Below are positions 2,618 to 63,943 of a stretch of DNA of 64,000 nt, piece by piece. Source of the DNA: an uncultured Alphaproteobacteria bacterium. GTDB taxonomy: Bacteria > Pseudomonadota > Alphaproteobacteria > HIMB59 > GCA-002718135. The translations under genes were made by a program, and so were the position numbers. The notes under the pieces are model-generated. The model was not told where the DNA came from and ran no database searches. It saw only the letters and a list, made by a program, of their open reading frames with translations. The stretch lies in NCBI GenBank assembly GCA_902615625.1, contig CACMPM010000006.1:10173-74172 (forward strand), written 5' to 3'. Each line of letters starts with the position of its first letter. The first letter of the stretch is position 1.

Positions 2618-2660
2618 TAAAAATCTTGAATTTTAAATAGATAGATATTACTCTTAATAA

Positions 2661-4941: not shown

Positions 4942-4948
4942 TATTTTT

Positions 4949-6142: not shown

Positions 6143-6148
6143 ATATAC

Positions 6149-6820: not shown

Positions 6821-6850
6821 TTGGAAGATATATATCTATATTACAGCTAA

Positions 6851-7414: not shown

Positions 7415-7423
7415 TTGTTTAAA

Positions 7424-9153: not shown

Positions 9154-9159
9154 ACTTTA

Positions 9160-9194
9160 AGATAAAAGAAATCACGCGGTAAAAACCGCGTGAT
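9160..9194 (-). terminator. Intercistronic hairpin plus U-rich tract between the binding-protein gene and the permease genes (attenuator / mRNA 3'-end stabiliser)
   Basis: The minus-strand RNA reads AUCACGCGG-UUUUUA-CCGCGUGAU (9-bp GC-rich stem, 9194-9171) followed by UUCUUUUAUCUU. Confidence 0.5.
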
Positions 9195-9204
9195 AAAATA
9201 TACA

Positions 9205-10464: not shown

Positions 10465-10607
10465 TTTATCCTCCCAGATAATTTCTTAATAGATAACATC
10501 ATAAAACTGGGAATTTTAGAAGGAAAAAAGAAAAATATTAAGAATATTTTATAATTCTAGGAAAAATACTAATATTAATAATTAATAATTACTGATACAA
10601 ATTAAGT

Positions 10608-12827: not shown

Positions 12828-12880
12828 AGTGATTTATATCAACAAAAGACTTAAAATAGAATAAATAGTAAAAATTAATA

Positions 12881-12955
12881 GGTCTCGTGGTGAAATGGAT
12901 ATCACACGTGTCTTCGGAACATGGATTTGGGGTTCGAGTCCCTACGAGACCGCCA
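12881..12955 (+). tRNA. tRNA-Arg (anticodon UCG), CCA encoded
   Basis: Hand-folded cloverleaf. Acceptor is GGTCTCG/CGAGACC, D arm GTGA/TCAC, anticodon stem CGTGT/ACATG with loop CTTCGGA (U33, anticodon TCG). T arm is TGGGG/CCCTA with loop TTCGAGT, followed by discriminator G plus CCA. It ends 1 nt before the asd stop codon. Confidence 0.9.
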
Positions 12956-12956
12956 A

Positions 12957-15113: not shown

Positions 15114-15119
15114 TTTTGA

Positions 15120-15722
15120 CTACACTATCCAAGGTTGGATACTGTGTATTTTTTCTTCGTGAACATCAATTTTTTTATTTTTTTGGAGCGTCAAACCAAT
15201 ATCGTCCAAACCCTCTAGCAAACATTTTTTTCGAAATGCATCAATTTCAAATTCTATTGTTTTATCATTTTGATAAGTGATTTTTTGATTTTCTAAATCA
15301 ACTGAAACATCATTTTTATTTTCTGCTTCGTTAATTAATATATCTACCTTTTGTTGATCTAACTTAATTGGCAGTATTCCATTTTTAAAACAATTATTAT
15401 AGAAAATATCTGCGAAGCTTGGTGCAATTATTGACTTAAAACCAAAATCTAAAAGTGACCATGGTGCATGCTCTCTACTTGATCCACAACCAAAATTTGC
15501 CCCAGCAATTAAAATTTTTGAAGTTTTATAAGGGTCCCAATTTAGAACAAAATCATTCTTTATGTTACCTTGAATATCGTATCTTAATTCATGAAATAAG
15601 TTTTTTCCTAAACCAGATCTCTTTATTGTTTTCAAAAATTGTTTTGGAATAATCATATCAGTATCGACATTAATCATTGGTAGTGGTGCAGGTATACTAA
15701 TTATTGTTTTAAATGATTCCAT
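15120..15722 (-). CDS. leuD: 3-isopropylmalate dehydratase small subunit
   Basis: 200 aa with GANFGCGSSREHAPW (aconitase swivel-domain motif). Confidence 0.95.
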   Translation of the reverse strand: MESFKTIISIPAPLPMINVDTDMIIPKQFLKTIKRSGLGKNLFHELRYDIQGNIKNDFVLNWDPYKTSKILIAGANFGCGSSREHAPWSLLDFGFKSIIAPSFADIFYNNCFKNGILPIKLDQQKVDILINEAENKNDVSVDLENQKITYQNDKTIEFEIDAFRKKCLLEGLDDIGLTLQKNKKIDVHEEKIHSIQPWIV

Positions 15723-17126
15723 TTATAAATCCTCTGCCGTTGCAAAAGAACCTTTGATCGCAGAGGCAGCAGCTATTGCGGGACTAACAAGATGTGTTCT
15801 ACCTTCTCTACCTTGTCTGCCTTCAAAATTTCTATTTGATGTTGATGCACATCTTTCTTGCGGTTTTAATTGATCTGGATTCATAGCTAAACACATGGAA
15901 CAACCTGGCTCTCTCCAATCAAATCCTGCTTCAATAAAAATTTTATCTAAACCTTCTTCTTCAGCCTGTTTTTTAACTAGACCTGAACCAGGAACGATCA
16001 TTGAGTCTACAGAAACTTTTTTGCCTTCTACAACTTTAGCAACTTCTCTTAAATCCTCAATTCTTCCATTAGTGCAAGAGCCAATAAACACTTTATCAAT
16101 TTTAATTTTTTGTATTTCTTGTTTGGGTTCTAAACCCATATATTCAAGAGAACGCTCCATAGCCTTTTTTCTATTTGGATTACTCTCTTCTTGAGGATTT
16201 GGTACTATACCATTTATAGCAACAACGTCTTGTGGGCTTGTGCCCCAAGTAATTTGTGGTGAAATATCTTCAGCATTAATTAAAATTTCTTCATCATATT
16301 TTGCACCCTCATCAGAAGGAAGAGATTTCCAAAATTCTACCGCTTTGTCCCAATTATCTCCTGATGGAGCGTACGGTCTACCTTTAATATATTCAAAAGT
16401 TTTTTCGTCAGGAGCGATTAAACCAGCTCTAGCACCTGCTTCAATACTCATATTACAGATTGTCATTCTTCCTTCCATAGAAAGAGAGGAAATTGCACTA
16501 CCACCATATTCAATAACATAACCAGTTCCACCAGCTGTTCCTATCTTTCCTATTATATGAAGGATAATATCTTTTGCTGTAACACCTAAGTTTAATTTAC
16601 CTTCAACAGAAATTTGCATATTCTTTGCAGGTTTTTGAATTAAGGTCTGAGTAGCTAATACATGTTCAACTTCACTTGTGCCAATACCAAAAGCTAAGGC
16701 ACCAAATGCTCCGTGTGTTGCTGTATGACTATCACCACAAACTATTGTCATACCTGGCTGAGTAATACCCTGTTCTGGTCCAACTATATGAACTATACCT
16801 TGTCTACTATCTAATAATGGAAAAAGTGTAACATCAAAATCTTTGCAATTTTTTTCTAGTGTTTCAACCTGAATTCTACTTTCTTTATTTTCTATACCTT
16901 TAGATCTATCTGAAGTTGGGACATTATGATCAGCTACAGCAAAAGTACTTTCGGGTCTTCTAACTTTACGATTATTATTTCTCAAACCTTCAAATGCTTG
17001 AGGACTTGTAACTTCATGAACAAGGTGTCTATCAATATATATAAGACAAGTTCCATCTTCTTGTCTATCGACAAGATGATGTTCCCAAATTTTATCAAAA
17101 AGAGTTTTAGGATTATTTATTGTCAT
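15723..17126 (-). CDS. leuC: 3-isopropylmalate dehydratase large subunit
   Basis: [12 protein letters not shown]-terminus and Fe-S cluster cysteines ([15 protein letters not shown]). I place the start at ATG 17126 ([14 protein letters not shown]) rather than the track's 17171. It still overlaps the end of rplS by 14 nt. Confidence 0.95.
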
Positions 17127-17718
17127 CCGATTTATTTTCGGCTGCTTTTTCCTCTTCTTTACTAGATTCATCTGCAGCTTCTGCTTTAGATTCTTCTGCT
17201 GGTTTGGCTTCTGCTTCTTCTGCTTTTGTCTCTGCTTGTTTTGCTTCTACCTCTTCAGCTTTTGGTTCCTCTGCAGCATTTGTATTAGTATCTTTAGTTT
17301 TTGTTTCTTCTACCGGAGGAGCCTCCTCTATATATTCATATTGATCAGCTTCATCGCCCCTATCTTTATCTGCGATCCTTGCTTTCTTTCCAGATAATTC
17401 TCTTAGATAATATAGCTTAGCTCTTCTTACATCACCTTTTCTAACAACTTCAATTTTTTCTACTAATGGACTGAATAAAGGGAATACTCTTTCAACACCC
17501 TCTCCATGAGATATTTTTCTCACAGTAAAGTTAGAGTTTACTGAATTATTTTTTCTTGCAATACAAATACCTTCAAATGCTTGAAGTCTCGACTTACTTC
17601 CCTCTGTAATTCTTACAGTAACTTTTAGAGTATCGCCTGGACGAAAAGCAGGAACTCTTTTTTTTAAAGTTAACTTTTCAATCTGTTGTTTTTCAAATGT
17701 CTCTAATAAATTACTCAT
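17113..17718 (-). CDS. rplS: 50S ribosomal protein L19 with an ~80-aa acidic Ala/Glu/Lys-rich C-terminal extension
   Basis: The core is RPGDTLKV...[10 protein letters not shown]...[18 protein letters not shown]. The tail is [52 protein letters not shown]. Confidence 0.95.
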
Positions 17719-17719
17719 T

Positions 17720-18418
17720 TTATATTTCCTTTTTATAAAGATCTGGTCTTAATTCTTTAGTTTTTTCAACCGATTTTTCTTTTCTCCATTTATAAATTTT
17801 TTCATGATGACCTGATGTTAAAACATCTGGAACTTCATGTTTATTTCCCTGAATATCTTCCCAGGTTTGTGGTCTGGTATAATGAGGATATTCAAGCAGA
17901 TTATTAGAAAAAGATTCTTCTAATAAACTTTGTGGCTGCCCTAATACTCCAGGAATGAGACGAATACAACCTTCAACTAACACCTGGGCAGCAATCTCAC
18001 CACCAGAAAGGACGTAATCACCGATACTTATTTCCTGAAAATCAAGAATTTCTATAGCTCTTTGGTCAACCCCTTCAAATCTACCGCATAAAATAAGCAT
18101 TTCATCATGTTTTGATAGATTATTAAGTTTGGCTTGAGATAATTTCTGACCTGACGGTGTTAGAAAAATTTTGCAGTAATTATCGGTTTTGAAAGTGATT
18201 GAATTTAATGCTTTTTCTATCACATCTGGACGAATAACCATTCCAGGGCCTCCCCCAAAAGGTTCATCATCAACACTTCCTCTTTTGTCAATTCCAAAAT
18301 TATGTAAATTGACTATCTCGAGAGAAAATTTTTTATTGTTTAATGCATTTCCGATTACAGAATATCCTAGTGAACCAGGGAACATCTCAGGATAACAAGT
18401 TAAAATTACTACTCTCAT
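17720..18418 (-). CDS. trmD: tRNA (guanine37-N1)-methyltransferase
   Basis: [16 protein letters not shown]-terminus and GRFEGVDQR / [11 protein letters not shown] motifs. I prefer ATG 18418, one nt after the rimM stop, over the upstream TTG at 18427. Confidence 0.95.
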
Positions 18419-18419
18419 T

Positions 18420-18926
18420 TTAATCAAGAATACCAGGTATTGGATCAGCTATAATTTCTTTTTTATTAATATTAACTGATAAAATATTTGTTTTATCAAA
18501 AGGTATAAGAATAAGTTTGGTATTATATTTGACTTCTAATAAATCACCTGCTCCAAAATTTTGAACACTTAAAACTTTTCCAACACTAGTATTGTCTTTC
18601 AAGAAAATCATGCATTCGATTAGATCGTTTATGTAAAACTCATTATCTTTTGTTTTTGGAAAAAATTTCTTATTTGAAAAAATTTTTTGACCTTTAAGCT
18701 CTAAAGCATCTTCTCTAGAAAAGTAATTTTCAACCTGAACAACACACTTATTATTTTTGAATAAAATATTTTTAAAATTCCAAGCAACTGAACCATCAAA
18801 ATTATAATAGTTTTTTAAATTTTTAAAAACTTCAAACGAGGTAGTCATCATATTTACTTTTATTTCACCTTTTAATCCTACAGGAGATCCAAACTGACCA
18901 ACAAGAATAATATCTTTATTACTCAA
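18420..18926 (-). CDS. rimM: 16S rRNA processing protein RimM
   Basis: 168 aa with GSPVGLKGEIKV N-terminus, positioned between rpsP and trmD. It appears to use a TTG start. Confidence 0.9.
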   Translation of the reverse strand: MSNKDIILVGQFGSPVGLKGEIKVNMMTTSFEVFKNLKNYYNFDGSVAWNFKNILFKNNKCVVQVENYFSREDALELKGQKIFSNKKFFPKTKDNEFYINDLIECMIFLKDNTSVGKVLSVQNFGAGDLLEVKYNTKLILIPFDKTNILSVNINKKEIIADPIPGILD

Positions 18927-18940
18927 AGCAAAAATTGATT

Positions 18941-19396
18941 TTATTCTTTTTTAGCTTCTGCTTCTTCTGCTTTTGGTTCTTCAGCAGGTTGTGCATCTTC
19001 AGCTGGCTTAGCTTCTGCTTCTTCTGCTTTTGGTTCTTCTGCTGCAGCTTTCGCAGCTTCTTCTTTTTCTTTAGCAGCAGCTAAACGTTCCTGAGCTTTT
19101 TTCTTAGGTAGATGTTTTTTTGTTTTTTCAGTAATAACTGGTTTTTCCATCACACCAAGATTGCTAAGAAAAATAGAAATTCTATCTGATGGTTTTGCTC
19201 CTTTTGCAATCCATTCCTTAGCTTTATCTAAATCCATTTTAACTCTATCAGCGCTATCCTTTGGAAGCATTGGGTTATAAGTTCCAATTTGATCTATAAA
19301 TTTTCCATCTCTAGCTCTTCTAGAATCAGCAACTACTATTCTATAAAATGGTCTTTTCTTTGCACCACCTCTTGATAATCTTATTCTTACTGGCAT
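18941..19396 (-). CDS. rpsP: 30S ribosomal protein S16 with an Ala/Glu/Lys/Pro-rich C-terminal extension
   Basis: The core is [26 protein letters not shown]. The tail contains [11 protein letters not shown] twice. Confidence 0.95.
18951..19039. repeat. 32-nt perfect direct repeat (period 57 nt) inside the rpsP tail; 22 nt of it recur in the rplS tail at 17207-17228
   Basis: TTAGCTTCTGCTTCTTCTGCTTTTGGTTCTTC occurs at about 18951-18982 and 19008-19039. GCTTCTGCTTCTTCTGCTTTTG also occurs at 17207-17228. Confidence 0.85.
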
Positions 19397-19408
19397 TTTA
19401 TTTCCTTT

Positions 19409-20773
19409 CTAATTTATGTTTGGAGGAAAATTTCCTTGTAATTTTTGCATTAAATCACTGGGAATTCCTCCTTTGCCCATTGATTTCATTCTCTTCATCA
19501 TTTTTTGTGATTGGAGAAACTGTTTTAATAACCTGTTAACGTCTTGAACTTTTGTTCCAGATCCTTTTGAAATTCTAATTTTACGTGAAGCCTTTATAAT
19601 ATCTGGATCAGCCCTTTCTTTTTTTGTCATTGAACTGATTATAGCTATTTGTTTATCAATCATTGAATTAGAAATTTTATTTTCTGCCATTAACTTCTGT
19701 GCCTTTGAAACACCTGGCATCATAGAAAGTAAACCGGAGACTCCACCCATTTTACCCATTTGCTTTAATTGATTGGCAAAATCTTCAAGGTCAAATTTTC
19801 CTTTAGCGATCTTTTTTGCCATATCTTCCATTTCTTCTTTATCAATATTTTCAGCAGCTTTTTCGACAAGAGATACAATATCTCCCATACCTAAAATTCT
19901 TTGTGCAATTCTTTCAGGATGGAAAGGTTCAAAATTTTCTACTTTTTCACCTAGTCCTATAAATTTTATAGGAGAGTTTGTTATCGATTTAATTGATAGT
20001 GCTGCACCACCTCTGCTATCACCATCTATTCGAGTTAAAATTGATCCAGTGATATTTATTGCATCACTAAAACTTTTAGCTACATTTGCTGCGTCTTGTC
20101 CTGTTAGAGCATCTGCTACTAATAATGTTTCGTCAGGTTTAAACTTATTTTCAATTTCAATTAATTCACTCATTAACTTTTTATCTACAACTTGTCGTCC
20201 AGCAGTATCTAAAATAAGAATATCAAATAAATTTTTTTGAGCATAGTCTATAGAATCATCAACAATCTTACTGGCTGATGATAGATTATGACTAAAGAAA
20301 TCTGAGCCGGTTTCTTCAGCTAATACTTTTAATTGTTCTTGTGCTGCTGGTCGATAAATGTCTGCTGATGCTAATAAAATTTTTTTCTTTGAAGACTTCT
20401 TTAACAAATAGGAAAGTTTGGCAATTGATGTTGTTTTCCCAGATCCTTGTAATCCACAAAATAATATTTTAGTTAATTGAGAAGAAGATAAATTTAGAGA
20501 TTTATTTTCTGATCCAAGAATTTTTACAAGCTCATCTTGCACAAGCTTTATGATCATTTGATCTGGCTTGACAGATTTGAGAATTTCTTTTCCCAAAATG
20601 TTTGACTTGATGGAATTTATAAATTCTTTTACTACAACTAAGGAAACATCTGCCTCTAAGAGAGCAATTCTAATTTCACGTAATGTAACTTCAAGATCTG
20701 TTTCTGATATAACAGCCTTACCCCGAATACTTTGAACAATTTTTTCAAATTTTGTGTTCAGTGTATCAAACAT
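19409..20773 (-). CDS. ffh: Signal recognition particle protein Ffh
   Basis: GLQGSGKTTS P-loop, DTAGR, the SRP54 G domain and a Met-rich M domain (MGKMGG...MMPG). I place the start at ATG 20773 (MFDTLNTKFEKI), preceded by GGAG. The track's upstream extension covers a leader hairpin. Confidence 0.95.
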   Translation of the reverse strand: MFDTLNTKFEKIVQSIRGKAVISETDLEVTLREIRIALLEADVSLVVVKEFINSIKSNILGKEILKSVKPDQMIIKLVQDELVKILGSENKSLNLSSSQLTKILFCGLQGSGKTTSIAKLSYLLKKSSKKKILLASADIYRPAAQEQLKVLAEETGSDFFSHNLSSASKIVDDSIDYAQKNLFDILILDTAGRQVVDKKLMSELIEIENKFKPDETLLVADALTGQDAANVAKSFSDAINITGSILTRIDGDSRGGAALSIKSITNSPIKFIGLGEKVENFEPFHPERIAQRILGMGDIVSLVEKAAENIDKEEMEDMAKKIAKGKFDLEDFANQLKQMGKMGGVSGLLSMMPGVSKAQKLMAENKISNSMIDKQIAIISSMTKKERADPDIIKASRKIRISKGSGTKVQDVNRLLKQFLQSQKMMKRMKSMGKGGIPSDLMQKLQGNFPPNIN

Positions 20774-54144: not shown

Positions 54145-55140
54145 GTGACCAAAATTCACGTCGATTTTATTAGAGGTAAAGAAATTGAAAGCACTCATCA
54201 AGTTAAAGCATTGGTAACAAATATTGATGGTAGAATTTTGTTATCTACAAATAATGATGATGATTTTTTTTTCCCTCGATCTTCAATTAAAGTATTTCAA
54301 GCAATTCCTTTCGTAATTTCAGGTGCAATCAAAAAATATAAGTTAAACGGTAAACACGTAGCTTTAGCTTGTGCTTCGCACAAAGGAGAGGGGTTTCATA
54401 TAAGTGAACTAAAAAAATGGATTTCAAAAATAAAATTAAAAACAAAAAATTTACAATGTGGTATTCATGGACCATTAGATAAAACAGCTTCAGAAAAAAT
54501 AATATATTCTAGAAATAAATTTAACGAGTTGCATAACAATTGTGCTGGTAAACACTTAGCTATGTTAACAAGCTGTCTATGTAATAACCATAGCATTACA
54601 AATTATTTAGATTTCAATCATCCACATCAAAAAAATATTAGAACAGTTTTCAATAAGTTCACAGAGACAAAATTATCAAAAAAAAATTTCTCTTTAGATG
54701 GTTGTAGCGCTCCACAATATTCATTCCGAATAAAATCAATATCTAAAGCCTTAAATAATTTAATTAAATGCTATAATAGTAATCTTGAATATTCAATAGC
54801 AGCAAGAATACTAATTGATTCAACTTTAAAATATCCAAAATATATTGGAGGAACAAAAAGCTTTGATACAAAAGTAATTGATTCTTCAAAAAGTAAAATA
54901 TTTTGTAAACATGGGGCAGAAGGTGTTTTTTTGTTTGCTCATTTGAAAAAGGGAATAAGTGGAGTAATTAAAGTAAAAGATGGTAATGAAAGAGCGATAC
55001 CAATCACCATAATGAATATTTTTAAAAAATTAAAAATTATGAATAAAAGTGAATTAAGAAACTTACAAAGAAAGGAAGAGTTTTATCTTAAGAACCATGC
55101 AGAAAAGAAGATTGGGTATATTAACTTTAAGATAATATAA
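54145..55140 (+). CDS. Asparaginase II family protein (Rhizobium-type L-asparaginase fold)
   Basis: 331 aa with PRSSIKVFQA, ACASHKGE and NNCAGKH motifs. GTG start. Confidence 0.75.
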   Translation: MTKIHVDFIRGKEIESTHQVKALVTNIDGRILLSTNNDDDFFFPRSSIKVFQAIPFVISGAIKKYKLNGKHVALACASHKGEGFHISELKKWISKIKLKTKNLQCGIHGPLDKTASEKIIYSRNKFNELHNNCAGKHLAMLTSCLCNNHSITNYLDFNHPHQKNIRTVFNKFTETKLSKKNFSLDGCSAPQYSFRIKSISKALNNLIKCYNSNLEYSIAARILIDSTLKYPKYIGGTKSFDTKVIDSSKSKIFCKHGAEGVFLFAHLKKGISGVIKVKDGNERAIPITIMNIFKKLKIMNKSELRNLQRKEEFYLKNHAEKKIGYINFKII

Positions 55141-55558
55141 TTAACATAAATATACCAATCAATATTGTTAATGGCAATCTTAGAAAATAAAAGGCGCTTT
55201 TATTTAATTCGTTAGAAAATATAATAATGTAGTCAAAAAATAATTGTGTTAACAAAAGCAGGATTATTAAGATAAAAATTATTAAAATATTAATATTATA
55301 AAGATTTAATATTATAATAATAACTGAGAACAGGCTTGGTAGAAAACCATAAATTACAATATGTATAGGTGGATTATTTTTTAAATTCCAGTTAATTGAT
55401 CCGATAAAAACTATAATTATTAAACTGTAATAAGTGATAAAATTTAATAAAATCTCTTCTTTAATTTTCAAAAAATAATATTTATCTAAAAATACTATAG
55501 CGTATGGTATTAATCCAAAATATGAAATTAGGAATTGTATATTAATTTTTTTGAACAT
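55127..55558 (-). CDS. Small polytopic membrane protein (DUF3429-like)
   Basis: 143 aa with 4 hydrophobic helices. The family assignment is tentative. Confidence 0.55.
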   Translation of the reverse strand: MFKKINIQFLISYFGLIPYAIVFLDKYYFLKIKEEILLNFITYYSLIIIVFIGSINWNLKNNPPIHIVIYGFLPSLFSVIIIILNLYNINILIIFILIILLLLTQLFFDYIIIFSNELNKSAFYFLRLPLTILIGIFMLIILS

Positions 55559-56443: not shown

Positions 56444-57496
56444 TTACACACAAGGGTTGGGATCAGATAAGTGTATGTCTTCAATTTCTTTTAATAATTC
56501 ATTTGACAGTGAAATATCGATGCTATCTATATTCTCTTTAAGTTGATCCATTGTTGTAGCGCCAATTATATTACTCGTAACAAATGGACGATCATTCACA
56601 AAAGCATTCGCGAAAGTGGAAGGGGCGATATTATGTTTTTGAGCAAGTTTAAAATATTTTACAATTGCTCTTTCTCCTCTTTCGGTATGATGTCTAGAAA
56701 ATCTTCGTGGCCAAAGGGTGTATCTAGCTTTTTGAGGATTTTTTCCGCCAATATATTTACCGCTTAATCTACCGCCTGCTAAAGGTGAGTAAGCAAGTAA
56801 ACCACAACATTCTCGGATAGAAACTTCCGAATTATGAATATCAAATACACGGTTAACCAGACTATAAACATTCTGTATTGACACCATACGAGGAAGATTT
56901 TTTTCCTTAGAAATTTGGAGATATTTCATAACACCCCAAGGCGTTTCGTTTGACAAGCCGGCGTATCTAATCTTACCTGCCTTAACAAGCTGATCTAGAT
57001 TATATAAAACCTCTTCTACTGTAGTCCAATCATTATCACTAGCATCATACTCAAAGTCTAAAACTCCAAACTTTGGTACTTTTCTTTCAGGCCAATGAAG
57101 TTGGTATAAATCAATATAATCAGTCTTTAATCTTTTAAGACTTTCATCCACTGCAGCACTCATATTCTTTTTATCAAAACCAAGATTTTTAGCTCCTTCT
57201 CTAATCCACTCTAGACCATCTGATTTTGATGCGATTTTTGATGCTAAAATTATTTTATCTCTATTTTTTTTTTCATGAAACCAGTTGCCAACTATTTCTT
57301 CAGTTTTTCCATAAGTTTCTTTGCGGGGCATTACAGCATACAATTCTGCGGTGTCAAAAAAATTTACTCCTCTTTCAACAGCATAATTCATTTGATCAAA
57401 ACCATCTTGTTGGCTATTTTGTTCACCAAATGTCATGGTGCCTAAACAAATCACGCTTACATCAATATCTGTATTTCCTAGTTTTCTATATTTCAT
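56444..57496 (-). CDS. Aldo/keto reductase (Tas-like, NADP-dependent)
   Basis: 350 aa with LGTMTFG, FDTAELY and IDLYQLHWP motifs. Confidence 0.9.
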   Translation of the reverse strand: MKYRKLGNTDIDVSVICLGTMTFGEQNSQQDGFDQMNYAVERGVNFFDTAELYAVMPRKETYGKTEEIVGNWFHEKKNRDKIILASKIASKSDGLEWIREGAKNLGFDKKNMSAAVDESLKRLKTDYIDLYQLHWPERKVPKFGVLDFEYDASDNDWTTVEEVLYNLDQLVKAGKIRYAGLSNETPWGVMKYLQISKEKNLPRMVSIQNVYSLVNRVFDIHNSEVSIRECCGLLAYSPLAGGRLSGKYIGGKNPQKARYTLWPRRFSRHHTERGERAIVKYFKLAQKHNIAPSTFANAFVNDRPFVTSNIIGATTMDQLKENIDSIDISLSNELLKEIEDIHLSDPNPCV

Positions 57497-57566
57497 ACTA
57501 TTTTTATAAAATGCCTTGAAATTGTCGGATTTATAGCGATATTAATAATAATTAAAAGGAGAAATT

Positions 57567-58319
57567 ATGGCTTTAGACTTTAATCAACGATCTTATACTA
57601 AATCAGTAGATCAAGCGGCAATTGATGAAGGCTTGAGAGCGTATATGCTTAAAGTTTACAATTATATGACAATTGGCTTATTGCTTACTGGTTTTATTGC
57701 TTACTTTTTTGGAAAAGCATCAATAGTTACTAATGAGATGGGGCAAATTGTTGGAGTAACTCAGGTAGGAGCATTACTTTTTGGGTCTCCTCTTAAATGG
57801 GTGGTTATGCTAGCACCTTTAGGATTCGTTTTTTATTTAAGTGCGAGAATTAACAAAATGTCAGTTTCAGCCGCACAAATTACTTTTTGGCTTTTTGCAA
57901 GTATAATGGGTTTATCTCTTGCATCAGTATTTATAGAATTTACTCAAACTTCTATAGCAAGAGTGTTTTTCATTACTGCAAGTACTTTCGGAGCAATGAG
58001 CTTATACGGCTATACTACAAAAAGAGATCTAACAAAACTTGGGGGTTTTTTGTTCATGGGTCTAATTGGTATTATTATAGCAAGTGTAGTAAATATTTTC
58101 GTTGGATCAACAGCCTTACAATTTGCAATCTCAGTTATTGGTGTTTTAGTATTTGTTGGTTTAACAGCCTACGATACTCAAAATATCAAAAATATGTATT
58201 ATGGTGGTGATAGCGAGGAAATAGGTTCTAAAAAAGCATTAATGGGTGCCTTAAAGTTATACCTAGATTTCATTAATCTATTCATTTTATTGCTACAATT
58301 ATTTGGCCAAAGAAGATAA
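57567..58319 (+). CDS. Bax inhibitor-1 / YccA family membrane protein
   Basis: 250 aa with 7 TM helices. It has an LRAYMLKVYNYM N-terminal motif and the C-terminal LYLDFINLF. Confidence 0.9.
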   Translation: MALDFNQRSYTKSVDQAAIDEGLRAYMLKVYNYMTIGLLLTGFIAYFFGKASIVTNEMGQIVGVTQVGALLFGSPLKWVVMLAPLGFVFYLSARINKMSVSAAQITFWLFASIMGLSLASVFIEFTQTSIARVFFITASTFGAMSLYGYTTKRDLTKLGGFLFMGLIGIIIASVVNIFVGSTALQFAISVIGVLVFVGLTAYDTQNIKNMYYGGDSEEIGSKKALMGALKLYLDFINLFILLLQLFGQRR

Positions 58320-58379: not shown

Positions 58380-60185
58380 ATGTCTAACTTAGAAAATAAA
58401 CTTAAGAAAGTAGTTAACACCTTTAACAACATAAATAAGGAACAAGGCTATAGAGATATAAAAAAATTATCTGAAAAATATAAGAAGAATATAAAAGTTC
58501 TAAATGTATTATCACAGATATCCCAAAAGATGGGTGATATAGATACAGCATTAAATTCTTTAAAAAAAATTTTATTAATTGAAAATGATAATGTCGCTTT
58601 TCTTTCTAAAATTTATAAATTATTTTTAATCAAATCTTCATGGAATGAAGCTTTAGACTATATTGATACAATTTTAAGAATAGATAAGGAACATTATGAA
58701 GCAATGCGCGATAAAGCTTATATTTATTTTTTAAAAAATGATTTTGTTAATGCAAAAAAATACATAGATGAAATTTCAAAAATAAAAAATGATGATTTCT
58801 TTGCCTATAATATTAAAGGGTTAATATATTTAAAAAATAATATTTTGTATGAAGCAAAAGATTATTTTGAGCACGCAATTGAAATAAATAATAAACATGT
58901 TGATAGTTACAATAATTTAGGTGTTTGTTTGCTCGAATCAGAGAAATTAAATGAAGCGTACAAAATATTTAAAGACGCTTATGAAATAGACCCCAATAAT
59001 ACTAAAACTCTTTTAAATTTAGGTAATGTTTTAAGTCTTCAAGATAATATTTTAGAAGCTATAGAAATTTACAGTAATGCTTTAAATTTGTCTCCTAATA
59101 ATCAAGAAATTTTATCTAATATAGCAATATGTTATTGCAGAGAAAATAAAGAAAAAGAAGCTAAAATTTACTATGATAAAGCTATAAAAATTAATCCATA
59201 TGATTATAAATTAAAATATGCCTATTGTACTTTACAGTTAAAAATAAATAATTTTACCAGATCATGGGACTTGTTTGATTCAAGATTATTGATTGAAAAA
59301 AATAAGGCTAAATTAAATAATTTTGAATTAGTTAAGAATAATCTATTTGAGAATTTAAAAATTAATCCAGAAAATAAAATACTAATTTTAAGAGAGCAAG
59401 GAATTGGTGAAGAAATTTTATTTAGCTCTGTGTATCAAGAGTCCATCGATAAATTTAAAGATATTAAAATTGAAGCTGATAAAAGACTGGTATCGGTATT
59501 TAATCGATCATTTAAAAAAAATATATTTGTTGAAGATGGATATTATTCAAAAAATTCAAAGATATCTGAATTTGATAATGTAGTATATGCTGGAAGTATA
59601 ATCAAATTTTTTAGAAAAAGAAAAAGTGATTTTACTAATAGTAATTATTTAATAGCTAGAGATGATATTATTGATAAATACAAAGAAAAATTATCTAATT
59701 ACAAAGAAAAACTAAAAGTAGGTATTTCATGGAAAAGTATAATAAATATTTATGGAAATTTAAAATCATTATCTATCAAAGATTTTGAGCCATTATTTAC
59801 TAGTGACAGACTTATTATAAACTTACAATATGGAAATGTTGAAAAAGACAAAGAATATTTATCAAGTCAGAATAAAAATTTGAAAATTTTTAATGAATTA
59901 GACTTATACAATGATATTGAGGCTTGTATGGGTTTACTAAAAAACTTAGATTTATTTATAACAGTTAGTAACTCTACAGCTCATTTTGCTGGAGCTCTAG
60001 GCGTACCCACGATATTAATATGTCCTAAAAAATCATCTACGTATTACTATTGGAATACTAATAGTGGATCATCAATATGGTATAAAAATATAAAAGTTTT
60101 AGGAGTAGATAGTTCAATAAATAAAACTGTAGAGCAAATAAACAACATTGTAGAAAAGAATGATGAATTTAATTTCTCAAATTAA
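58380..60185 (+). CDS. TPR-repeat / GT9-like (heptosyltransferase-fold) glycosyltransferase fusion protein, paralog 1
   Basis: 601 aa. The N-terminal ~290 aa are TPR repeats. The C-terminal half carries ILREQGIGEEILFSS and VSNSTAHFAGALGVPT, which resemble GT9 signatures. Confidence 0.7.
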   Translation: MSNLENKLKKVVNTFNNINKEQGYRDIKKLSEKYKKNIKVLNVLSQISQKMGDIDTALNSLKKILLIENDNVAFLSKIYKLFLIKSSWNEALDYIDTILRIDKEHYEAMRDKAYIYFLKNDFVNAKKYIDEISKIKNDDFFAYNIKGLIYLKNNILYEAKDYFEHAIEINNKHVDSYNNLGVCLLESEKLNEAYKIFKDAYEIDPNNTKTLLNLGNVLSLQDNILEAIEIYSNALNLSPNNQEILSNIAICYCRENKEKEAKIYYDKAIKINPYDYKLKYAYCTLQLKINNFTRSWDLFDSRLLIEKNKAKLNNFELVKNNLFENLKINPENKILILREQGIGEEILFSSVYQESIDKFKDIKIEADKRLVSVFNRSFKKNIFVEDGYYSKNSKISEFDNVVYAGSIIKFFRKRKSDFTNSNYLIARDDIIDKYKEKLSNYKEKLKVGISWKSIINIYGNLKSLSIKDFEPLFTSDRLIINLQYGNVEKDKEYLSSQNKNLKIFNELDLYNDIEACMGLLKNLDLFITVSNSTAHFAGALGVPTILICPKKSSTYYYWNTNSGSSIWYKNIKVLGVDSSINKTVEQINNIVEKNDEFNFSN

Positions 60186-61950
60186 TGTTATACTTAAAAA
60201 ATTTGAAACTGGTGATAAATTAGAAAGTTATAAAGAGCTTCACAAAATTTTTAAAAAAAACAAAGATAATAATTTATTACGATATAACCTAGCAGTTATT
60301 CAACAAAGTCTAAACATGAATAAAGAGGCTAGAATAAATTATAACCATCTAATAAAAAATGAAAAGAATCTGAAAGCAATGATTAATCTTTATAATTTGG
60401 ATATTACAGAAGCAAATTATTATGAAGCATTTAATACAATAGAAAGTATTTTAAAAATAAAGACAATTGAAAACGTAGTTAAAGATAAAGCTTTTGTTCT
60501 TTATAAATTAAATAGAATTGAAGAAGCAAAAGAAATTTGCATATTTTACCTAAATAAAAATAATAAAGATTTAGGTTTTCTTACTGTAATAGGTCAGTGC
60601 TTATTCCATGAAAGAAAATATGATGAAGCAATTAAAATATTTGAAAATATACTACAAATAGACTCAAAGAATCTCTCAGCATTAAACTCTTTAGCAAGAA
60701 CATATAATGAAAAAAACGAAAAAGGAAAAGCAGAAGAATACTATCTAAAAGCTCTAAAGATTGACGGTTCATCTTTTTATTTATTAAATAATATTGCAGG
60801 TTTTTATCGAGAGAATTCATCTTACGATAAAGCTATTGATTATTACAAACAAGCACTTTTAGTAAATCCAAATAATCCGTATATCTATAATAATTTGGGT
60901 AAAATCTATTTCGATTTAAACAATCATAAAAAAGCTATGGAAAATAGTTTTAAAGCTTTGAAAATGAGAAGGAATGATGGTGATATTCAAAAAACTATTT
61001 CCTTCATATATCTAAAAGATTATGATTTTGAAAATGGTTGGAGCTACTATGATGGAAGATTGGATATAGAGGATTTTAAAGAGAAAAATAATTTCATAAA
61101 GAAATTAAATAAAAAATTATACAGATCACGTAGTCTTAATAATAAAAAAGGTAAATTTCTAATTGTACGTGAACAGGGTGTAGGAGATGAAATACTATAT
61201 AGTTCTATGTATGAAGATTTTTTAAGTGATTTTGATAATACAATTATAGAGTGCGATCCTCGTTTATTAAATTTCTACAAAAGATCATTCCCAAAATATA
61301 GTACAAAATTTGTTAGACTTGGAACTATTACAAATGATGATGATGAGTTTAAAAAAATTGACAATGTAATTTATGCTGGAAGCCTAGGAAGATATTACCG
61401 TAATGATATTAAAGATTTTAAAAATAATTCTTATTTAAAAGTAGACGAAAAAAAATTAGAAGAAATGAAAAGACAATTGTCAATTTATAAGAAAAAATAC
61501 AAGATTGGACTATCATGGAAAAGTTTTAGTGATAAATTTGCCACAGATAAATCTTTAAACCTTAAAGATCTTAAAAAAATTTTTAGTCTTACTAACTGTG
61601 ATATTTTTAATTTACAATATGGTGTTCTTGAGGATGAAATAAATAGTTTCAATAATACAACTAAAAATAAACTACTTAGTATAGAGGGTTTGGATTTGAA
61701 AAATGATTTTGAAGGTATTGCTTCATTATTAAAGTCACTTGATGTTTTTATATCTGTTAGTAACAGTACTGCCCATCTTGCAGGAGCATTGGGTGTGAAA
61801 ACAATTTTGATTAAGCCAGAAAATTTTGCTGTTTTTCATTACTGGAATCAAAAAACAGAGAATACTCCATGGTATCCTTCAGTTAGACTGATTAACAAAA
61901 AAAAATTTTTAATTGATTCTAAATTTTTAAAAAATATTTTAGATACTTGA
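60160..61950 (+). CDS. TPR-repeat / GT9-like glycosyltransferase fusion protein, paralog 2
   Basis: 596 aa with the same architecture (IVREQGVGDEILYSS, VSNSTAHLAGALGVKT). It overlaps paralog 1 by 26 nt. Confidence 0.7.
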   Translation: MMNLISQINVILKKFETGDKLESYKELHKIFKKNKDNNLLRYNLAVIQQSLNMNKEARINYNHLIKNEKNLKAMINLYNLDITEANYYEAFNTIESILKIKTIENVVKDKAFVLYKLNRIEEAKEICIFYLNKNNKDLGFLTVIGQCLFHERKYDEAIKIFENILQIDSKNLSALNSLARTYNEKNEKGKAEEYYLKALKIDGSSFYLLNNIAGFYRENSSYDKAIDYYKQALLVNPNNPYIYNNLGKIYFDLNNHKKAMENSFKALKMRRNDGDIQKTISFIYLKDYDFENGWSYYDGRLDIEDFKEKNNFIKKLNKKLYRSRSLNNKKGKFLIVREQGVGDEILYSSMYEDFLSDFDNTIIECDPRLLNFYKRSFPKYSTKFVRLGTITNDDDEFKKIDNVIYAGSLGRYYRNDIKDFKNNSYLKVDEKKLEEMKRQLSIYKKKYKIGLSWKSFSDKFATDKSLNLKDLKKIFSLTNCDIFNLQYGVLEDEINSFNNTTKNKLLSIEGLDLKNDFEGIASLLKSLDVFISVSNSTAHLAGALGVKTILIKPENFAVFHYWNQKTENTPWYPSVRLINKKKFLIDSKFLKNILDT

Positions 61951-62640
61951 GTTAAATTTATTTGAAAGATATTCATCTCTTTCCAATATCCATTCTTTTG
62001 CAAATTCAACATCTTGCCATTCAGAAAACCAGGGTCCGCCTCGTGTATAATGGACTGCATAGGGCTTTTTATTATTGTGATCTGAGGTCCAACCCTCCAA
62101 CCAGTTCCATCTTTCATCTAGTGAGCCAATCTCATCATCTTGACACCATTTGAATTGATGAAGATATGCACCAGTTTCATTATTTACTTTCTCAACTGTA
62201 AGATTCTTTGTGCTTGGATGAGAACAATTGTATAGAATAAAACTAGACCAATTTTTTCTTGGATAGATTGTTTGTTTTTGTCCATCCATCTTATGTTTTT
62301 CTTTAGGGGTATAATCATGTTGAACACAATAAGCAGCTTTAGTTTCGTCAAGATTGTTTAGCAAATTTGCAACATCTCCTAAAAAAATAAAATCACAATC
62401 ACAAAAAACTGCCCACCCTTCATAATTCATAAGTTTAGGAACTAAAAATCTAGAATAGGTAAATTCTGTAGAAGCTAATGGGTCGACATTTCTAGTATAT
62501 AATTTTTTAGCTATAAGCTCCTCAAGCTTTAAAGACACAACATTTACTTTAATGCTAGATTGTTTTAAAAGTGAATGTTTACATACTCTATAGGCAATAT
62601 CTTCTTTAGAATCATACCCTATGAAGAAATTTAGTTTCAT
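61939..62640 (-). CDS. GT8-like (retaining, DxD) glycosyltransferase
   Basis: 233 aa with VFCDCDFIFLGD (DxD) and HYTRGGPWF (GT8-like H..G..KPW region). It has a convergent 12-nt overlap with TPR-GT paralog 2. Confidence 0.6.
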   Translation of the reverse strand: MKLNFFIGYDSKEDIAYRVCKHSLLKQSSIKVNVVSLKLEELIAKKLYTRNVDPLASTEFTYSRFLVPKLMNYEGWAVFCDCDFIFLGDVANLLNNLDETKAAYCVQHDYTPKEKHKMDGQKQTIYPRKNWSSFILYNCSHPSTKNLTVEKVNNETGAYLHQFKWCQDDEIGSLDERWNWLEGWTSDHNNKKPYAVHYTRGGPWFSEWQDVEFAKEWILERDEYLSNKFNSSI

Positions 62641-62641
62641 A

Positions 62642-63943
62642 TTAATAATTACTATTTCTTAACATTTTATGTGATGCCCAAACAAGCGAATTATAATTTC
62701 CAGAATTAGATAAACTACTCCACTCATCTTGAGTTTGATTAGTAATTCTGCAAATCCATGTATCTTCCACATTTGCATTTTCAGCTCTCATAATCCATGC
62801 ATCACTTTTCTGTTTATCATTATTTTCTCCAAGTTCTATCTCTGACATAAAGAAACAGATTTCTTTTGATGGATTAGCTCCAATCATACCTGAAATATTT
62901 TCCCTGGCCAAATCCCAATTTAGATTTTTTATAGCAAAATACACTAAAAGTTTTTTAGACTCCTCTGAGTTTAAATTGTTTTTAACCAAATCATTTATAA
63001 ATTTTATATCACTTAGATCATTCTGAATTAATATTTTTGTTATAATAGATCTCAGTAAAGAACTTTGATTTAAGTGCCAATACTTCTTAATTTGTTTACT
63101 TAAATTTCTTTTATCATTTAAATTTGCAAGGATCTCTAAGTGTAATTTTATATATGGAGCAAAGCTTTTCTTTAATTCAATTGCTTTAAGAATATTTTTT
63201 AAAGCATCATTTATTTCACTGTCAGATTTAATTTTTGCTATCTCGTAATATCCAATTGATTTATTTTCATTAAGATCATTTTTATTTATAATTTTATTTG
63301 AGAAGGCTTTATCTGATAATGAAATTAGTTGATTCCAATTCTTTGTTTTGGCAGCAATAAATATTAATGTTTCATAAAGCTTTTCAATATTAGGATTTAA
63401 AGAGAATAATTTTTCTCCATATAAAAAAGCATGGTGATAATCATGGTTTTTTAAGTTTTGTTCCATTAAACCCCTATAACCTAGTGTTTCTGTCTTTTTT
63501 GATTTAATCATATCTTCATAGACATTGTTAAGTTCTGGAAATTTTTTCTCTATCTTTAATACCTCAGATTTTAATAAAAGAGATAAAGACGGGTCATCTT
63601 TTAAATAAGAAGTCATTTTTTTATGGAATTTTATTGCAGATTTATTATCTTTATTCGCTACAGCAATCATTGCGTCAACAAAATGTAAGTAACCCTTTTC
63701 AATTTTATTATATTTATTTTTTAAGAAATATTTACCGATTGAAAGTCTTGATCGGAAAAATAAATAAAGCGCCAAATATAATAAAAAAACAAAAGATATA
63801 AAAACAACGGCAAATAAATTTGAAGAAAAAGAATATTTTAAATTTCCTATATCTAAGGATACAATAAATGGATTGGTAAAAATAAAAGTGAGCGCTATGA
63901 TTAATAGTAAAAACTGCAATATAAAAATTGAAAATCTATACAT
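62642..63943 (-). CDS. HemY-like (HemY N-terminal domain) membrane protein with TPR-like helical repeats
   Basis: 433 aa with two N-terminal TM helices, a long helical-repeat region and a W-rich C-terminus (WICRITNQTQDEW...LVW), as in alphaproteobacterial hemY-like genes. Confidence 0.7.
   Translation of the reverse strand: MYRFSIFILQFLLLIIALTFIFTNPFIVSLDIGNLKYSFSSNLFAVVFISFVFLLYLALYLFFRSRLSIGKYFLKNKYNKIEKGYLHFVDAMIAVANKDNKSAIKFHKKMTSYLKDDPSLSLLLKSEVLKIEKKFPELNNVYEDMIKSKKTETLGYRGLMEQNLKNHDYHHAFLYGEKLFSLNPNIEKLYETLIFIAAKTKNWNQLISLSDKAFSNKIINKNDLNENKSIGYYEIAKIKSDSEINDALKNILKAIELKKSFAPYIKLHLEILANLNDKRNLSKQIKKYWHLNQSSLLRSIITKILIQNDLSDIKFINDLVKNNLNSEESKKLLVYFAIKNLNWDLARENISGMIGANPSKEICFFMSEIELGENNDKQKSDAWIMRAENANVEDTWICRITNQTQDEWSSLSNSGNYNSLVWASHKMLRNSNY

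What the first reader, a model, noticed from the sequence alone, without database searches (positions are those of the whole stretch)
58380..62640. Tandem TPR-glycosyltransferase fusion paralogs plus a GT8-like enzyme: candidate protein- or envelope-glycosylation module
Seen: two adjacent, 26-nt-overlapping genes (601 and 596 aa) share one architecture. The first ~290 aa are TPR repeats. The C-terminal domain carries (I/V)REQG(I/V)G(E/D)EIL(F/Y)SS and VSNSTAH(F/L)AGALGV, which resemble GT9 (heptosyltransferase-fold) signatures. They are clearly paralogous but strongly diverged. A 233-aa DxD/H..GGPW GT8-like gene converges on them with a 12-nt overlap. This block is even more AT-rich than its surroundings. 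Established: TPR-plus-glycosyltransferase fusions are the design of protein glycosyltransferases (OGT/GT41; the Caulobacter flagellin glycosyltransferase FlmG is described as TPR plus GT), where the TPR selects the protein substrate. GT9 enzymes normally act on LPS cores. Inference: these may glycosylate specific proteins (pilins, abundant periplasmic binding proteins, surface proteins) or envelope glycans, with the two paralogs having different targets or sugars. SAR11-type cells are non-flagellated, so the target is not obvious.
Basis: partly seen in the sequence, partly recalled or inferred. Interest (0 to 1): 0.6.

Follow-up and report, generated by a model that had tools for sequence, protein, structure and literature searches.

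The report
SAR11 FlmG-like protein glycosylation module
Two adjacent SAR11 genes encode TPR-guided sugar-transferring enzymes of a kind that other bacteria keep beside their flagellin genes, next to a small GT8-type enzyme that is also their partner in many phages; this points to an unrecognised protein-glycosylation system in the ocean's most abundant, non-flagellated bacterium.

Summary
Two overlapping paralogs (601 and 596 aa, 31% identical) each carry N-terminal TPR repeats and a ~310-aa C-terminal domain. A 233-aa gene converges on them.

No Pfam or PDB sequence search recognises the C-terminal domain. A confident AlphaFold model is a GT-B fold whose best solved matches are GT9 heptosyltransferases. 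Some distant relatives pass the Pfam GT9 threshold. The domain defines a very large family (31,560 cluster representatives) with its own EQGxG(D/E) motif. It often occurs as giant (TPR-GT)n proteins.

Five of seven informative bacterial contexts of distant members lie in flagellin or flagellar-filament loci, and one lies in a type II secretion pseudopilin cluster. This is the FlmG design: TPR binds the protein and GT-B transfers the sugar.

The 233-aa gene is a divergent GT8. It recurs next to the TPR-GT gene in 51 phage loci, one flagellar island and the pseudopilin cluster, so the two genes form a real pair.

In SAR11 the locus is core, syntenic and intact, with one or two TPR-GT copies.

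Best reading: a cytoplasmic protein O-glycosylation module whose SAR11 target is unknown. An LPS-core role is the main rival.

The parts
58380..60185 (+). X1: TPR plus GT9-like GT-B glycosyltransferase, 601 aa
   Evidence: ORF. TPR Pfam hits at aa ~86-274. The C-domain model is GT-B and most like GT9. Orthologs in ~60 SAR11-type genomes are intact at 591-607 aa.
58380..59249 (+). X1 N-terminal TPR region (proposed acceptor-binding domain)
   Evidence: TPR_1/2/8/19 and related families, E down to 5e-28. No signal peptide or membrane segment is apparent by eye in the translation; no prediction was run.
59250..60185 (+). X1 C-terminal GT-B domain
   Evidence: AF2 pLDDT 85.8, pTM 0.87. Foldseek PDB best hits are 3tov, 1psw (WaaF) and WaaC. 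No Pfam or PDB sequence hit.
59394..59414 (+). X1 EQGIGEE motif (proposed catalytic-base loop, equivalent to GT9 'xxxGD')
   Evidence: E, Q, G, G and D/E are each kept in 185-190 of 190 family domain instances. The motif aligns to WaaF SWVGD (not significant on its own). Coordinates.
59964..60002 (+). X1 VSNSTAHFAGALG motif (proposed nucleotide-sugar binding loop)
   Evidence: Aligns to WaaF TNDSGLMHVAAALN. The family position is S95/D40/G27 followed by N133/T42. Coordinates.
60160..61950 (+). X2: paralogous TPR plus GT9-like glycosyltransferase, 596 aa; its start overlaps the X1 stop by 26 nt
   Evidence: The EQGVGDE motif is at 61171-61191 and VSNSTAHLAGALG at 61756-61794. X2 is absent from some SAR11 lineages, while others keep only an X2-like copy.
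61939..62640 (-). GT8L: small divergent GT8 (GT-A, DxD) glycosyltransferase, 233 aa
   Evidence: PF01501 scores 23.7 bits against a cut-off of 24.3, and 8 of 8 diverse homologs match. A profile hit to the WbbM GT8 domain falls at the DxD. phrog_28018 matches at E 1e-56. GT8L is paired with the TPR-GT gene in phages and bacteria.
62392..62400 (-). GT8L D81-C-D83 (DxD metal and nucleotide-sugar binding motif)
   Evidence: Invariant in the alignment of SAR11, phage, Paracoccus and Sinorhizobium homologs. Coordinates.
62642..63943 (-). HemY-like TPR membrane protein immediately upstream of GT8L (1-nt gap); probably the same transcription unit; not shown to belong to the module
   Evidence: PF07219 HemY_N and TIGR00540. 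Syntenic in all complete loci.

Best explanation
X1 and X2 are most likely soluble cytoplasmic enzymes built like Caulobacter FlmG. An N-terminal TPR superhelix binds a specific protein acceptor. A C-terminal GT-B domain transfers a nucleotide-activated sugar onto that protein before it is exported. By analogy with GT9, this would be an inverting transfer in which the Asp/Glu of the EQGxG(D/E) loop acts as the base and the H(F/L)AGALG loop holds the donor. The GT-B domain belongs to a very large, uncharacterised sister family of the GT9 heptosyltransferases. The GT8-like enzyme (GT-A fold, DxD, presumably metal-dependent and retaining) is its conserved partner and probably adds a second sugar. 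X1 and X2 together are the split equivalent of the multi-module (TPR-GT)n proteins found elsewhere. They probably serve different sites, sugars or acceptors. SAR11 lacks flagella, so the target must be another protein, for example a pilin or pseudopilin-type subunit or another surface or secreted protein. Shown here: the architecture, the fold, motif conservation, core status in SAR11, the gene pairing, and the flagellin, pseudopilin and capsid neighbourhoods of relatives. Inferred: catalytic roles of the residues, a protein acceptor in SAR11, the order of action, and the donor sugar.
For: GT-B fold with GT9 as the best solved match. PF01075 is passed by distant members. The family-wide EQGxG(D/E), H-AGA-G and PWY motifs are strictly conserved, which argues for active enzymes. 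Five of seven informative contexts of distant members lie in flagellin or flagellar-filament loci, namely L253, L256, L257, L258 and L259; one (L254) lies in a T2SS pseudopilin cluster with seven TPR-GT genes. In Ralstonia a member is in an operon with an autotransporter and a TPR-sulfotransferase. GT8L is adjacent to or near the TPR-GT gene in 51 phage loci, all on the same strand, with a median gap of 542 bp and 14 lineages below 50% identity. GT8L is also present in L258 and L254. In several phages the pair sits between the major capsid and adaptor genes. FlmG has the same size and domain boundary and a proven division of labour between TPR and GT-B (PMC7591256). FlmG residues 301-315, deduced from published primers, match the family motif just upstream of EQGxGD: score 43 against a maximum of 36 in 3000 random windows. 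The SAR11 genes are intact and syntenic in ~60 species-level genomes.
Against: There is no experiment, and no acceptor gene lies in the SAR11 neighbourhood; no prepilin-motif gene is in the window. X1 and X2 themselves do not hit PF01075 even at E<=10. Profile-to-PDB matches to GT9 are not significant. GT9 and GT8 are classical LPS-core families. GT8L homologs in Paracoccus and Sinorhizobium lie beside kdsB, kpsF and other envelope-glycan genes with no TPR-GT nearby. In SAR11 the adjacency could simply reflect the very conserved synteny of the whole region. In about half of the phage cases inspected the pair sits in the replication region rather than the structural region. The full FlmG sequence could not be obtained, so homology to FlmG is inferred rather than shown.
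Confidence: 0.55

Rival explanations
1. The three enzymes build or decorate the LPS core or another envelope glycan. The GT9-like enzymes would add a sugar to a Kdo-containing core and the GT8-like enzyme would extend it. The TPR domain would dock the enzyme to envelope-assembly proteins rather than to a protein substrate.
For: The nearest solved folds are the LPS heptosyltransferases WaaF and WaaC. JGI names some homologs 'ADP-heptose:LPS heptosyltransferase' and 'lipopolysaccharide biosynthesis glycosyltransferase'. GT8L homologs in Paracoccus and S. meliloti pSymB lie beside kdsB, kpsF, GT39 and other GTs. The Azospirillum member is near nucleotide-sugar, sulfation and ABC-transporter genes. 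Glycosyltransferases of pelagimyophages have been read as LPS modification (PMC9599517).
Against: The TPR fusion and the multi-module giants are not features of known LPS-core enzymes. Most informative contexts are flagellin, pseudopilin, autotransporter or capsid rather than LPS. The GT9 'D(T/S)G' sugar-binding Asp is replaced by S-N-S. Copy number varies between 1 and 2, and the genes diverge faster than GT8L.
Confidence: 0.25
2. The pair modifies a non-protein, non-LPS acceptor, for example DNA bases or a small metabolite. The SAR11 copies would serve a similar housekeeping modification.
For: In five of the ten longer phage loci whose gene order was listed, the pair lies between DUF3310 and methyltransferase genes on one side and DNA polymerase, exonuclease and helicase genes on the other. 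Methyltransferases accompany the pair.
Against: TPR domains are protein-binding modules. The same pair sits between capsid and adaptor genes in other phages and in flagellar and pseudopilin clusters in bacteria. No DNA-modification genes flank the SAR11 locus.
Confidence: 0.07
3. X1 and X2 are catalytically dead TPR scaffolds that merely retain a GT-B shaped domain.
For: No Pfam glycosyltransferase hit. Some family members, such as the phage MW202512.1 protein and one P0124 domain, have lost the His of the H-AGA-G motif.
Against: In X1, X2 and their SAR11 orthologs every family-wide motif is invariant. Family-wide, the EQGxG(D/E) residues are kept in 185-190 of 190 domain instances. The genes are under clear purifying selection for length and motifs.
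Confidence: 0.05

Closest known systems
FlmG flagellin O-glycosyltransferase of Caulobacter crescentus / Brevundimonas (PMC7591256; bioRxiv 10.1101/2022.03.25.485807)
   Same: FlmG is a ~600-aa soluble protein (596 aa) with TPR at 1-313 and GT-B at 309-596. The TPR binds the protein acceptor and the GT-B domain sets donor specificity. Distant members of the SAR11 family sit in flagellin loci. FlmG residues 301-315 fit the family motif.
   Different: SAR11 has no flagellin. No nonulosonic-acid genes are linked to the locus. The donor is unknown; the flagellar islands of relatives carry GDP-sugar-type genes and methyltransferases, so the family is not tied to Pse/Leg. Full-length homology to FlmG is untested. 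The published view is that FlmG is confined to Caulobacterales.
GT9 ADP-heptose:LPS heptosyltransferases (WaaC, WaaF; PF01075)
   Same: GT-B fold, and the best Foldseek PDB hits (3tov, 1psw, 2gt1, 6dfe). The N-terminal 'G-D' loop and C-terminal 'H-(L)-A-A-A-(L)-x-x-P' loop correspond. Some relatives pass PF01075.
   Different: Only 11-12% identity and TM 0.5-0.57. X1 and X2 get no PF01075 hit. The family has its own EQGxG(D/E), W..(F/Y)D.R, GxSW, LQ and PWY motifs. The Asp of 'D(T/S)G' is S-N in SAR11. The domain is nearly always fused to TPR (one 310-aa phage copy lacks it). Contexts point to protein acceptors rather than Kdo-lipid A.
Autotransporter heptosyltransferases TibC/AAH (BAHT family; own knowledge, cited in PMC7591256 ref. 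52)
   Same: GT9-related GT-B enzymes that glycosylate a secreted protein in the cytoplasm. The Ralstonia family member lies directly after an autotransporter gene. Depositors annotated one phage homolog 'tibC', and BFVD lists an Aah/TibC protein among the fold matches.
   Different: No TPR in TibC/AAH. TibC structures are not among the 50 best PDB fold matches. The donor there is ADP-heptose.
OGT / GT41 (TPR plus GT-B O-GlcNAc transferases)
   Same: The same design principle: a TPR superhelix feeding a GT-B catalytic domain.
   Different: No match to the GT41 Pfam model, and no OGT structure among the listed fold matches. This is convergent architecture, not membership.
GT8 retaining glycosyltransferases (LgtC, WbbM C-domain, GlyE, glycogenin; PF01501), for the 233-aa gene
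   Same: DxD motif. PF01501 matches in all 8 diverse homologs. The WbbM GT8 domain is the only PDB profile hit. GT8 structures head the fold matches.
   Different: Shorter (233 aa). The window protein scores just under the Pfam cut-off (23.7 against 24.3). It forms its own widespread clade (phrog_28018) shared by alphaproteobacteria and many phages.

Membership tests
GT9 (PF01075, heptosyltransferase family) | GT-B two-Rossmann fold most similar to solved GT9 enzymes | tested here: met
   AF2 model pLDDT 85.8. Foldseek PDB ranks 1-3 and 5-7 are 3tov, 1psw and WaaC, E 5e-7 to 2e-5, TM 0.5-0.57.
GT9 (PF01075, heptosyltransferase family) | Score at or above the Pfam gathering threshold for PF01075 | tested here: not met
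   No PF01075 hit for X1, X2 or their isolated C-domains even at E<=10. It is met only by distant relatives (24.1, 22.2, 24.6 and 74.9 bits).
GT9 (PF01075, heptosyltransferase family) | Acidic residue in the N-terminal Gly-Asp loop (WaaC Asp13, own knowledge) | tested here: inconclusive
   D/E is invariant in EQGxG(D/E) and aligns to the WaaF 'WVGD', but that alignment is not significant (E 0.24).
GT9 (PF01075, heptosyltransferase family) | Asp of the C-terminal 'D(T/S)G' sugar-binding motif (WaaC Asp261, own knowledge) | tested here: not met
   X1 and X2 have V-S-N-S. Family-wide the position is S95/D40/G27.
GT9 (PF01075, heptosyltransferase family) | ADP-heptose donor and Kdo/LPS-core acceptor | not testable with these tools
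   This needs biochemistry. Whether heptose-pathway genes exist in the genome could not be checked from a 64-kb window.
FlmG-class flagellin glycosyltransferases | N-terminal TPR plus C-terminal GT-B in one ~600-aa soluble protein | tested here: met
   FlmG is 596 aa with TPR at 1-313 and GT at 309-596.
FlmG-class flagellin glycosyltransferases | Sequence homology to FlmG | tested here: inconclusive
   The FlmG sequence is not retrievable. The 15 residues deduced from primers align to the family's P.W.G..L.GK motif just before EQGxGD: score 43 against a random maximum of 36. The same peptide is not significant by HMM.
FlmG-class flagellin glycosyltransferases | Genetic link to flagellin or flagellar genes | tested here: not met
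   No flagellar genes flank the SAR11 locus. The link is met for distant family members in five loci.
FlmG-class flagellin glycosyltransferases | Transfers CMP-pseudaminic or CMP-legionaminic acid | not testable with these tools
   No linked donor-synthesis genes. Relatives sit next to GDP-sugar-type genes and methyltransferases.
OGT / GT41 | Match to the GT41 catalytic domain model or structures | tested here: not met
   No GT41 Pfam hit. No OGT among the 50 best PDB fold matches.
GT8 (PF01501), for the 233-aa protein | Pfam PF01501 match | tested here: inconclusive
   The window protein scores 23.7 bits against a cut-off of 24.3. All 8 diverse homologs match, best E 4.9e-9. Several close orthologs carry PF01501 in precomputed annotation.
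GT8 (PF01501), for the 233-aa protein | DxD motif in a GT-A fold | tested here: met
   D81-C-D83 is invariant and aligns to the WbbM GT8 'DSD'. Fold matches are led by GT8 structures, although the model is weak (pLDDT 59.8).

The most novel reading that the evidence does not exclude
SAR11, which has no flagellum, keeps as core genes a FlmG-type protein O-glycosylation module: two TPR-GT9-like enzymes plus a GT8-like extender. The module has been re-targeted to another abundant surface or secreted protein. Many podophages have captured the same two-enzyme module, often with a methyltransferase, and frequently place it beside the capsid gene to glycosylate virion or host proteins. The underlying GT9-like family (tens of thousands of clusters, mostly annotated only as 'TPR protein') would then be a major, unrecognised class of bacterial and viral protein glycosyltransferases.
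Probability: 0.35. Interest if true: 0.8.

Novelty: new variant of a known kind. Interest (0 to 1): 0.62.

Why it matters
If the reading is right, the most abundant heterotroph in the ocean glycosylates specific proteins with a dedicated, conserved cytoplasmic system. That bears on phage adsorption, grazing resistance and the origin of marine glycoprotein-derived organic matter; surface phosphonoglycoproteins have been hypothesised for SAR11, PMC8931226. It would also give a function to a very large family now labelled only 'tetratricopeptide repeat protein'. It would extend the FlmG class far beyond Caulobacterales. And it would reveal a two-enzyme glycosylation cassette shared by bacteria and phages. 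The hypothesis can be tested directly with Pelagibacter cultures, or by heterologous co-expression.

Tried and rejected
1. Single-sequence and SAR11-profile searches of the C-domain against Pfam, NCBIfam and PDB sequences found nothing except TPR carry-over. A broad-family profile reached WaaF and 3tov only at E 0.24 and 0.41.

3. The FlmG sequence could not be retrieved. The 1998 paper is not held. An exact and a degenerate primer-derived pattern found nothing in metagenome contigs. A 40-aa bait in the protein index found no candidate and cost one search. HMM scoring of the 15-aa peptide alone was not significant.

4. The AF2 model of the GT8-like protein was poor (pLDDT 59.8) because only close homologs (78% identity or more) were allowed into the alignment. 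Its fold matches are used only as weak support.

5. OGT/GT41 membership is rejected.

6. Horizontal acquisition as the cause of the low GC is not favoured. The locus is syntenic and core in all SAR11-type genomes examined, and other fast-evolving neighbours are equally AT-rich.

7. The Burkholderia and Granulicella contexts and the P0167 context were uninformative. The P0176 and P0210 contigs were too short.

8. Literature searches for a description of a TPR-GT9 family or of SAR11 protein glycosylation found none.

Full report
**Observation.** The window holds the genes as described. X1 is 58380..60185 +, 601 aa. X2 is 60160..61950 +, 596 aa, overlapping X1 by 26 nt. A convergent 233-aa gene (61939..62640 -) overlaps the X2 stop by 12 nt. 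X1 and X2 are colinear paralogs, 31% identical, E 4e-73, aligned from residue 1. Pfam and NCBIfam find only TPR families, at about aa 80-290 in both. The quoted motifs are present. The X1-X2 block is the most AT-rich 3.6-kb stretch of the window (23.4% against 29.0% GC), but the 233-aa gene is not AT-rich (32.1%).

**What the C-terminal domain is.**
- Neither the full proteins nor the isolated C-domains hit any Pfam glycosyltransferase model, even at E<=10.
- phmmer and a SAR11 profile find no solved relative.
- An AlphaFold model built on 26 homologs is confident (pLDDT 85.8, pTM 0.87). It has two Rossmann-like halves.
- Foldseek against the PDB puts GT9 enzymes first: 3tov, WaaF 1psw, and WaaC 2gt1/6dfe, at E 5e-7 to 2e-5, TM 0.5-0.57 and 11-12% identity. 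UDP-GlcNAc 2-epimerases and other GT-B enzymes follow.
- A profile search of 1.84 billion cluster representatives shows a very large family: 31,560 hits at E<=1e-3 and 4,528 at E<=1e-30. Many are 1,000-3,100-aa proteins with two to five copies of the domain separated by TPR blocks.
- Some of these distant members pass the PF01075 (Glyco_transf_9) threshold (24.1, 22.2, 24.6 and 74.9 bits).
- A broad-family profile has WaaF and 3tov as its best, though non-significant, PDB sequence matches. It aligns EQGiGD to WaaF SWVGD, and LDlvitvdnataHLAGALGvP to CKAIVTNDSGLMHVAAALNRP.
- Family-wide conserved positions are W..(F/Y).R, EQGxG(D/E), GxxW, LQ, LD, H-AGA-G and PWY. The canonical GT9 'D(T/S)G' is kept in a minority. 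SAR11 and most phage copies have S-N instead.
- Conclusion: this is a divergent sister family of GT9. It is not a member by the Pfam criterion, and it probably does not use ADP-heptose.

**Status in SAR11.** A scan of species-representative genomes found 149 relatives, all in SAR11-type single-cell or metagenome genomes plus MarineAlpha5 bins.
- The order Bax1-I/YccA -> X1 -> X2 <- GT8-like <- HemY-like is conserved throughout.
- Orthologs are intact at 591-607 aa; the short ones lie at contig ends.
- Eleven complete loci have a single TPR-GT gene, either X1-type or X2-like.
- One genome has an extra X1-like copy elsewhere, convergent with a SAM methyltransferase.
- Between SAR11 subclades the X C-domains fall to 40-55% identity while the GT8-like protein stays at 72-98%.
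- The locus is therefore core, under purifying selection, moderately fast-evolving and not hypervariable.

**The 233-aa gene.**
- It scores 23.7 bits on PF01501 against a cut-off of 24.3. All eight diverse homologs match PF01501, best E 4.9e-9.
- The invariant D81-C-D83 aligns with the DxD of the WbbM GT8 domain.
- A weak AF2 model (pLDDT 59.8) still finds GT8 structures first.
- The family is extremely abundant, with at least 7,964 relatives.
- It has 45-61% identical homologs in Paracoccus, Rhizobium and Sinorhizobium pSymB, beside kdsB, kpsF, GT39 and other glycosyltransferase genes.
- It matches phrog_28018 at E 1e-56. It occurs in Pelagibacter phage Mosig (in a cluster with two methyltransferases, a sulfotransferase and another GT), in a Synechococcus phage, in a Stenotrophomonas phage and in Caulobacter giant phages.

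**The two gene kinds are a real pair.**
- A Manatee Spring podophage (MW202512.1) encodes a TPR-GT9-like protein, an FkbM methyltransferase and a GT8-like protein (44% identical to the SAR11 one), just downstream of its major capsid gene.
- In IMG/VR, 40 of 80 loci centred on the GT9-like domain also encode the GT8-like protein within 10 kb. Of 80 loci centred on the GT8-like protein, 16 encode the GT9-like domain.
- In the 51 pair loci both genes are always on the same strand. The order is GT9-like then GT8-like in 44. The median gap is 542 bp, and 43 lie within 1.5 kb. They represent 36, 29 and 14 lineages at 90%, 70% and 50% identity.
- These are genuine phages, with SU10-type capsid and adaptor, DNA polymerase A and DUF3310. 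FkbM, Methyltransf_24 or Methyltransf_23 genes ride with the pair.
- Gene order was listed for ten of the longer pair loci. The pair sits between the capsid and adaptor genes in three of them (and in MW202512.1). In five others it sits between DUF3310 and the DNA polymerase.
- BFVD fold matches include TPR proteins of cyanophage S-SRM01 and uncultured phages.

**What relatives do.** Nine distant bacterial family members were chosen for sequence diversity without knowledge of their neighbourhoods and looked up; seven contigs were informative.
- P0157 lies beside a 749-aa flagellin and FlbT.
- P0203 follows FliW-CsrA-flagellin and another two-module TPR-GT.
- P0160 is next to two methyltransferases, FliT, FliS and FliD.
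- P0121 lies in FlgK-FlgL-FliW-CsrA-flagellin-[P0121]-TPR-GT-FliD-FliS-GT8-GT4.
- P0241 lies in flagellin x2-FlaG-FliD-[P0241]-epimerase-ManC-Methyltransf_24-TPR-GT-FliS-FliT-FleQ.
- P0126 lies in a type II secretion cluster (GspE, GspF, four prepilin-type N-methyl proteins) with six further TPR-GT genes.
- HMM checks show that the 244-aa GT8 of the P0121 island (E 6e-72) and the 224-aa gene directly after P0126 (E 3e-94) are orthologs of the SAR11 GT8-like protein.
- The seventh context (P0167) was uninformative, and two further contigs (P0176, P0210) were too short.
- A Ralstonia member forms an operon with an autotransporter, a TPR-sulfotransferase and an APS kinase.
- The recurring theme is a filament-forming or secreted protein.

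**Relation to FlmG.** FlmG is 596 aa, with TPR at 1-313 and GT-B at 309-596. Its TPR binds flagellins and its GT-B domain sets Pse-versus-Leg specificity (PMC7591256; 10.1101/2022.03.25.485807). The authors consider the class confined to Caulobacterales. The sequence could not be fetched. Published primers give residues 301-315 as FQIPGVRWSGQDLRG. This peptide matches the family's P.W.G..L.GK motif just upstream of EQGxGD. The best match is PRWSGESLRGK in the P0121 flagellar protein, with score 43 against a random mean of 13.7 and maximum of 36. I take FlmG to be a probable member, but this is inference.

**Mechanism proposed.** See the best explanation. The TPR selects a protein. The GT-B domain transfers the first sugar, using the acidic residue of EQGxG(D/E) as the base. 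GT8L extends the glycan. X1 and X2 are a split two-module enzyme. The donor is unknown, and the neighbourhoods of relatives suggest it varies. The SAR11 acceptor is also unknown, and no prepilin-motif gene lies in the window.

**Rivals.** The main rival is an LPS or envelope-glycan role. It rests on the GT9 and GT8 family precedents and on the kdsB/kpsF neighbourhoods of GT8L homologs. Modification of DNA or a small molecule is suggested only by the replication-region placement in some phages. A pseudoenzyme role is unlikely given the motif conservation.

**Novelty.** The design (TPR plus GT-B protein glycosyltransferase) is known. Three things appear to be undescribed in the literature searched: the GT9-like family as a class, its presence as a core gene pair in a non-flagellated lineage, and the conserved partnership with a GT8-like enzyme in bacteria and phages.

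Noticed in passing
window 62642-63943 (-) and 61939-62640 (-): The HemY-like TPR membrane protein ends 1 nt before the GT8-like start codon. The GT8-like gene is therefore probably the last gene of the hemY transcription unit, not part of the X1-X2 operon.
   Followed up: partly
L080 (Ralstonia solanacearum PSI07 megaplasmid) 3435-11369: Apparent operon: autotransporter (1015 aa), TPR-sulfotransferase (700 aa), GT9-like (387 aa), hydrolase, APS kinase. This suggests combined glycosylation and sulfation of an autotransporter. TPR-sulfotransferases use the same 'TPR plus modifying enzyme' design.
   Followed up: partly
L254 (MAG GCA_947482685.1) 937-20052: A type II secretion gene cluster (GspE, GspF, four pseudopilin-like N_methyl proteins) contains seven TPR-GT9-like genes (nine domains in all) plus one GT8-like gene.
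   Followed up: partly
L085 (Pelagibacter phage Mosig) 2952-8786: A SAR11 myophage carries the GT8-like gene (46% identical) in a cluster with two methyltransferases, a sulfotransferase and a second glycosyltransferase. No TPR-GT9-like gene is present.
   Followed up: partly
L001 5809-7614; many loci, e.g. L007, L014, L025: In one single-cell genome X1 is split into a 60-aa ORF and a 537-aa ORF; this may be a frameshift or a sequencing error. Many SAR11 genomes have two tandem aldo-keto reductase genes upstream where this window has one.
   Followed up: no
L052 5131-7737 (AH-321-J05): An extra X1-like TPR-GT copy (598 aa) lies outside the canonical locus, between BipA/TypA and a convergent class I SAM methyltransferase. 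The same genome keeps an X2-like copy at the canonical site (L078).
   Followed up: partly
window 57226-57519 (+) and 57887-58210 (+): A 97-aa ORF antisense to the aldo-keto reductase gene and a 107-aa ORF in another reading frame inside the Bax1-I gene look like chance ORFs of AT-rich sequence.
   Followed up: no
X1 C-domain model, PDB fold matches: Accessory subunits of the spinach NDH-PSI supercomplex (9grx) and of Tetrahymena complex I (8b6f, 8gym, 7tgh) appear among the GT-B fold matches.
   Followed up: no
window 55127-55558 (-): A DUF3429 membrane protein gene has only 18.5% GC, the most AT-rich of the twelve genes and gene segments measured (all between 55127 and 63943).
   Followed up: no
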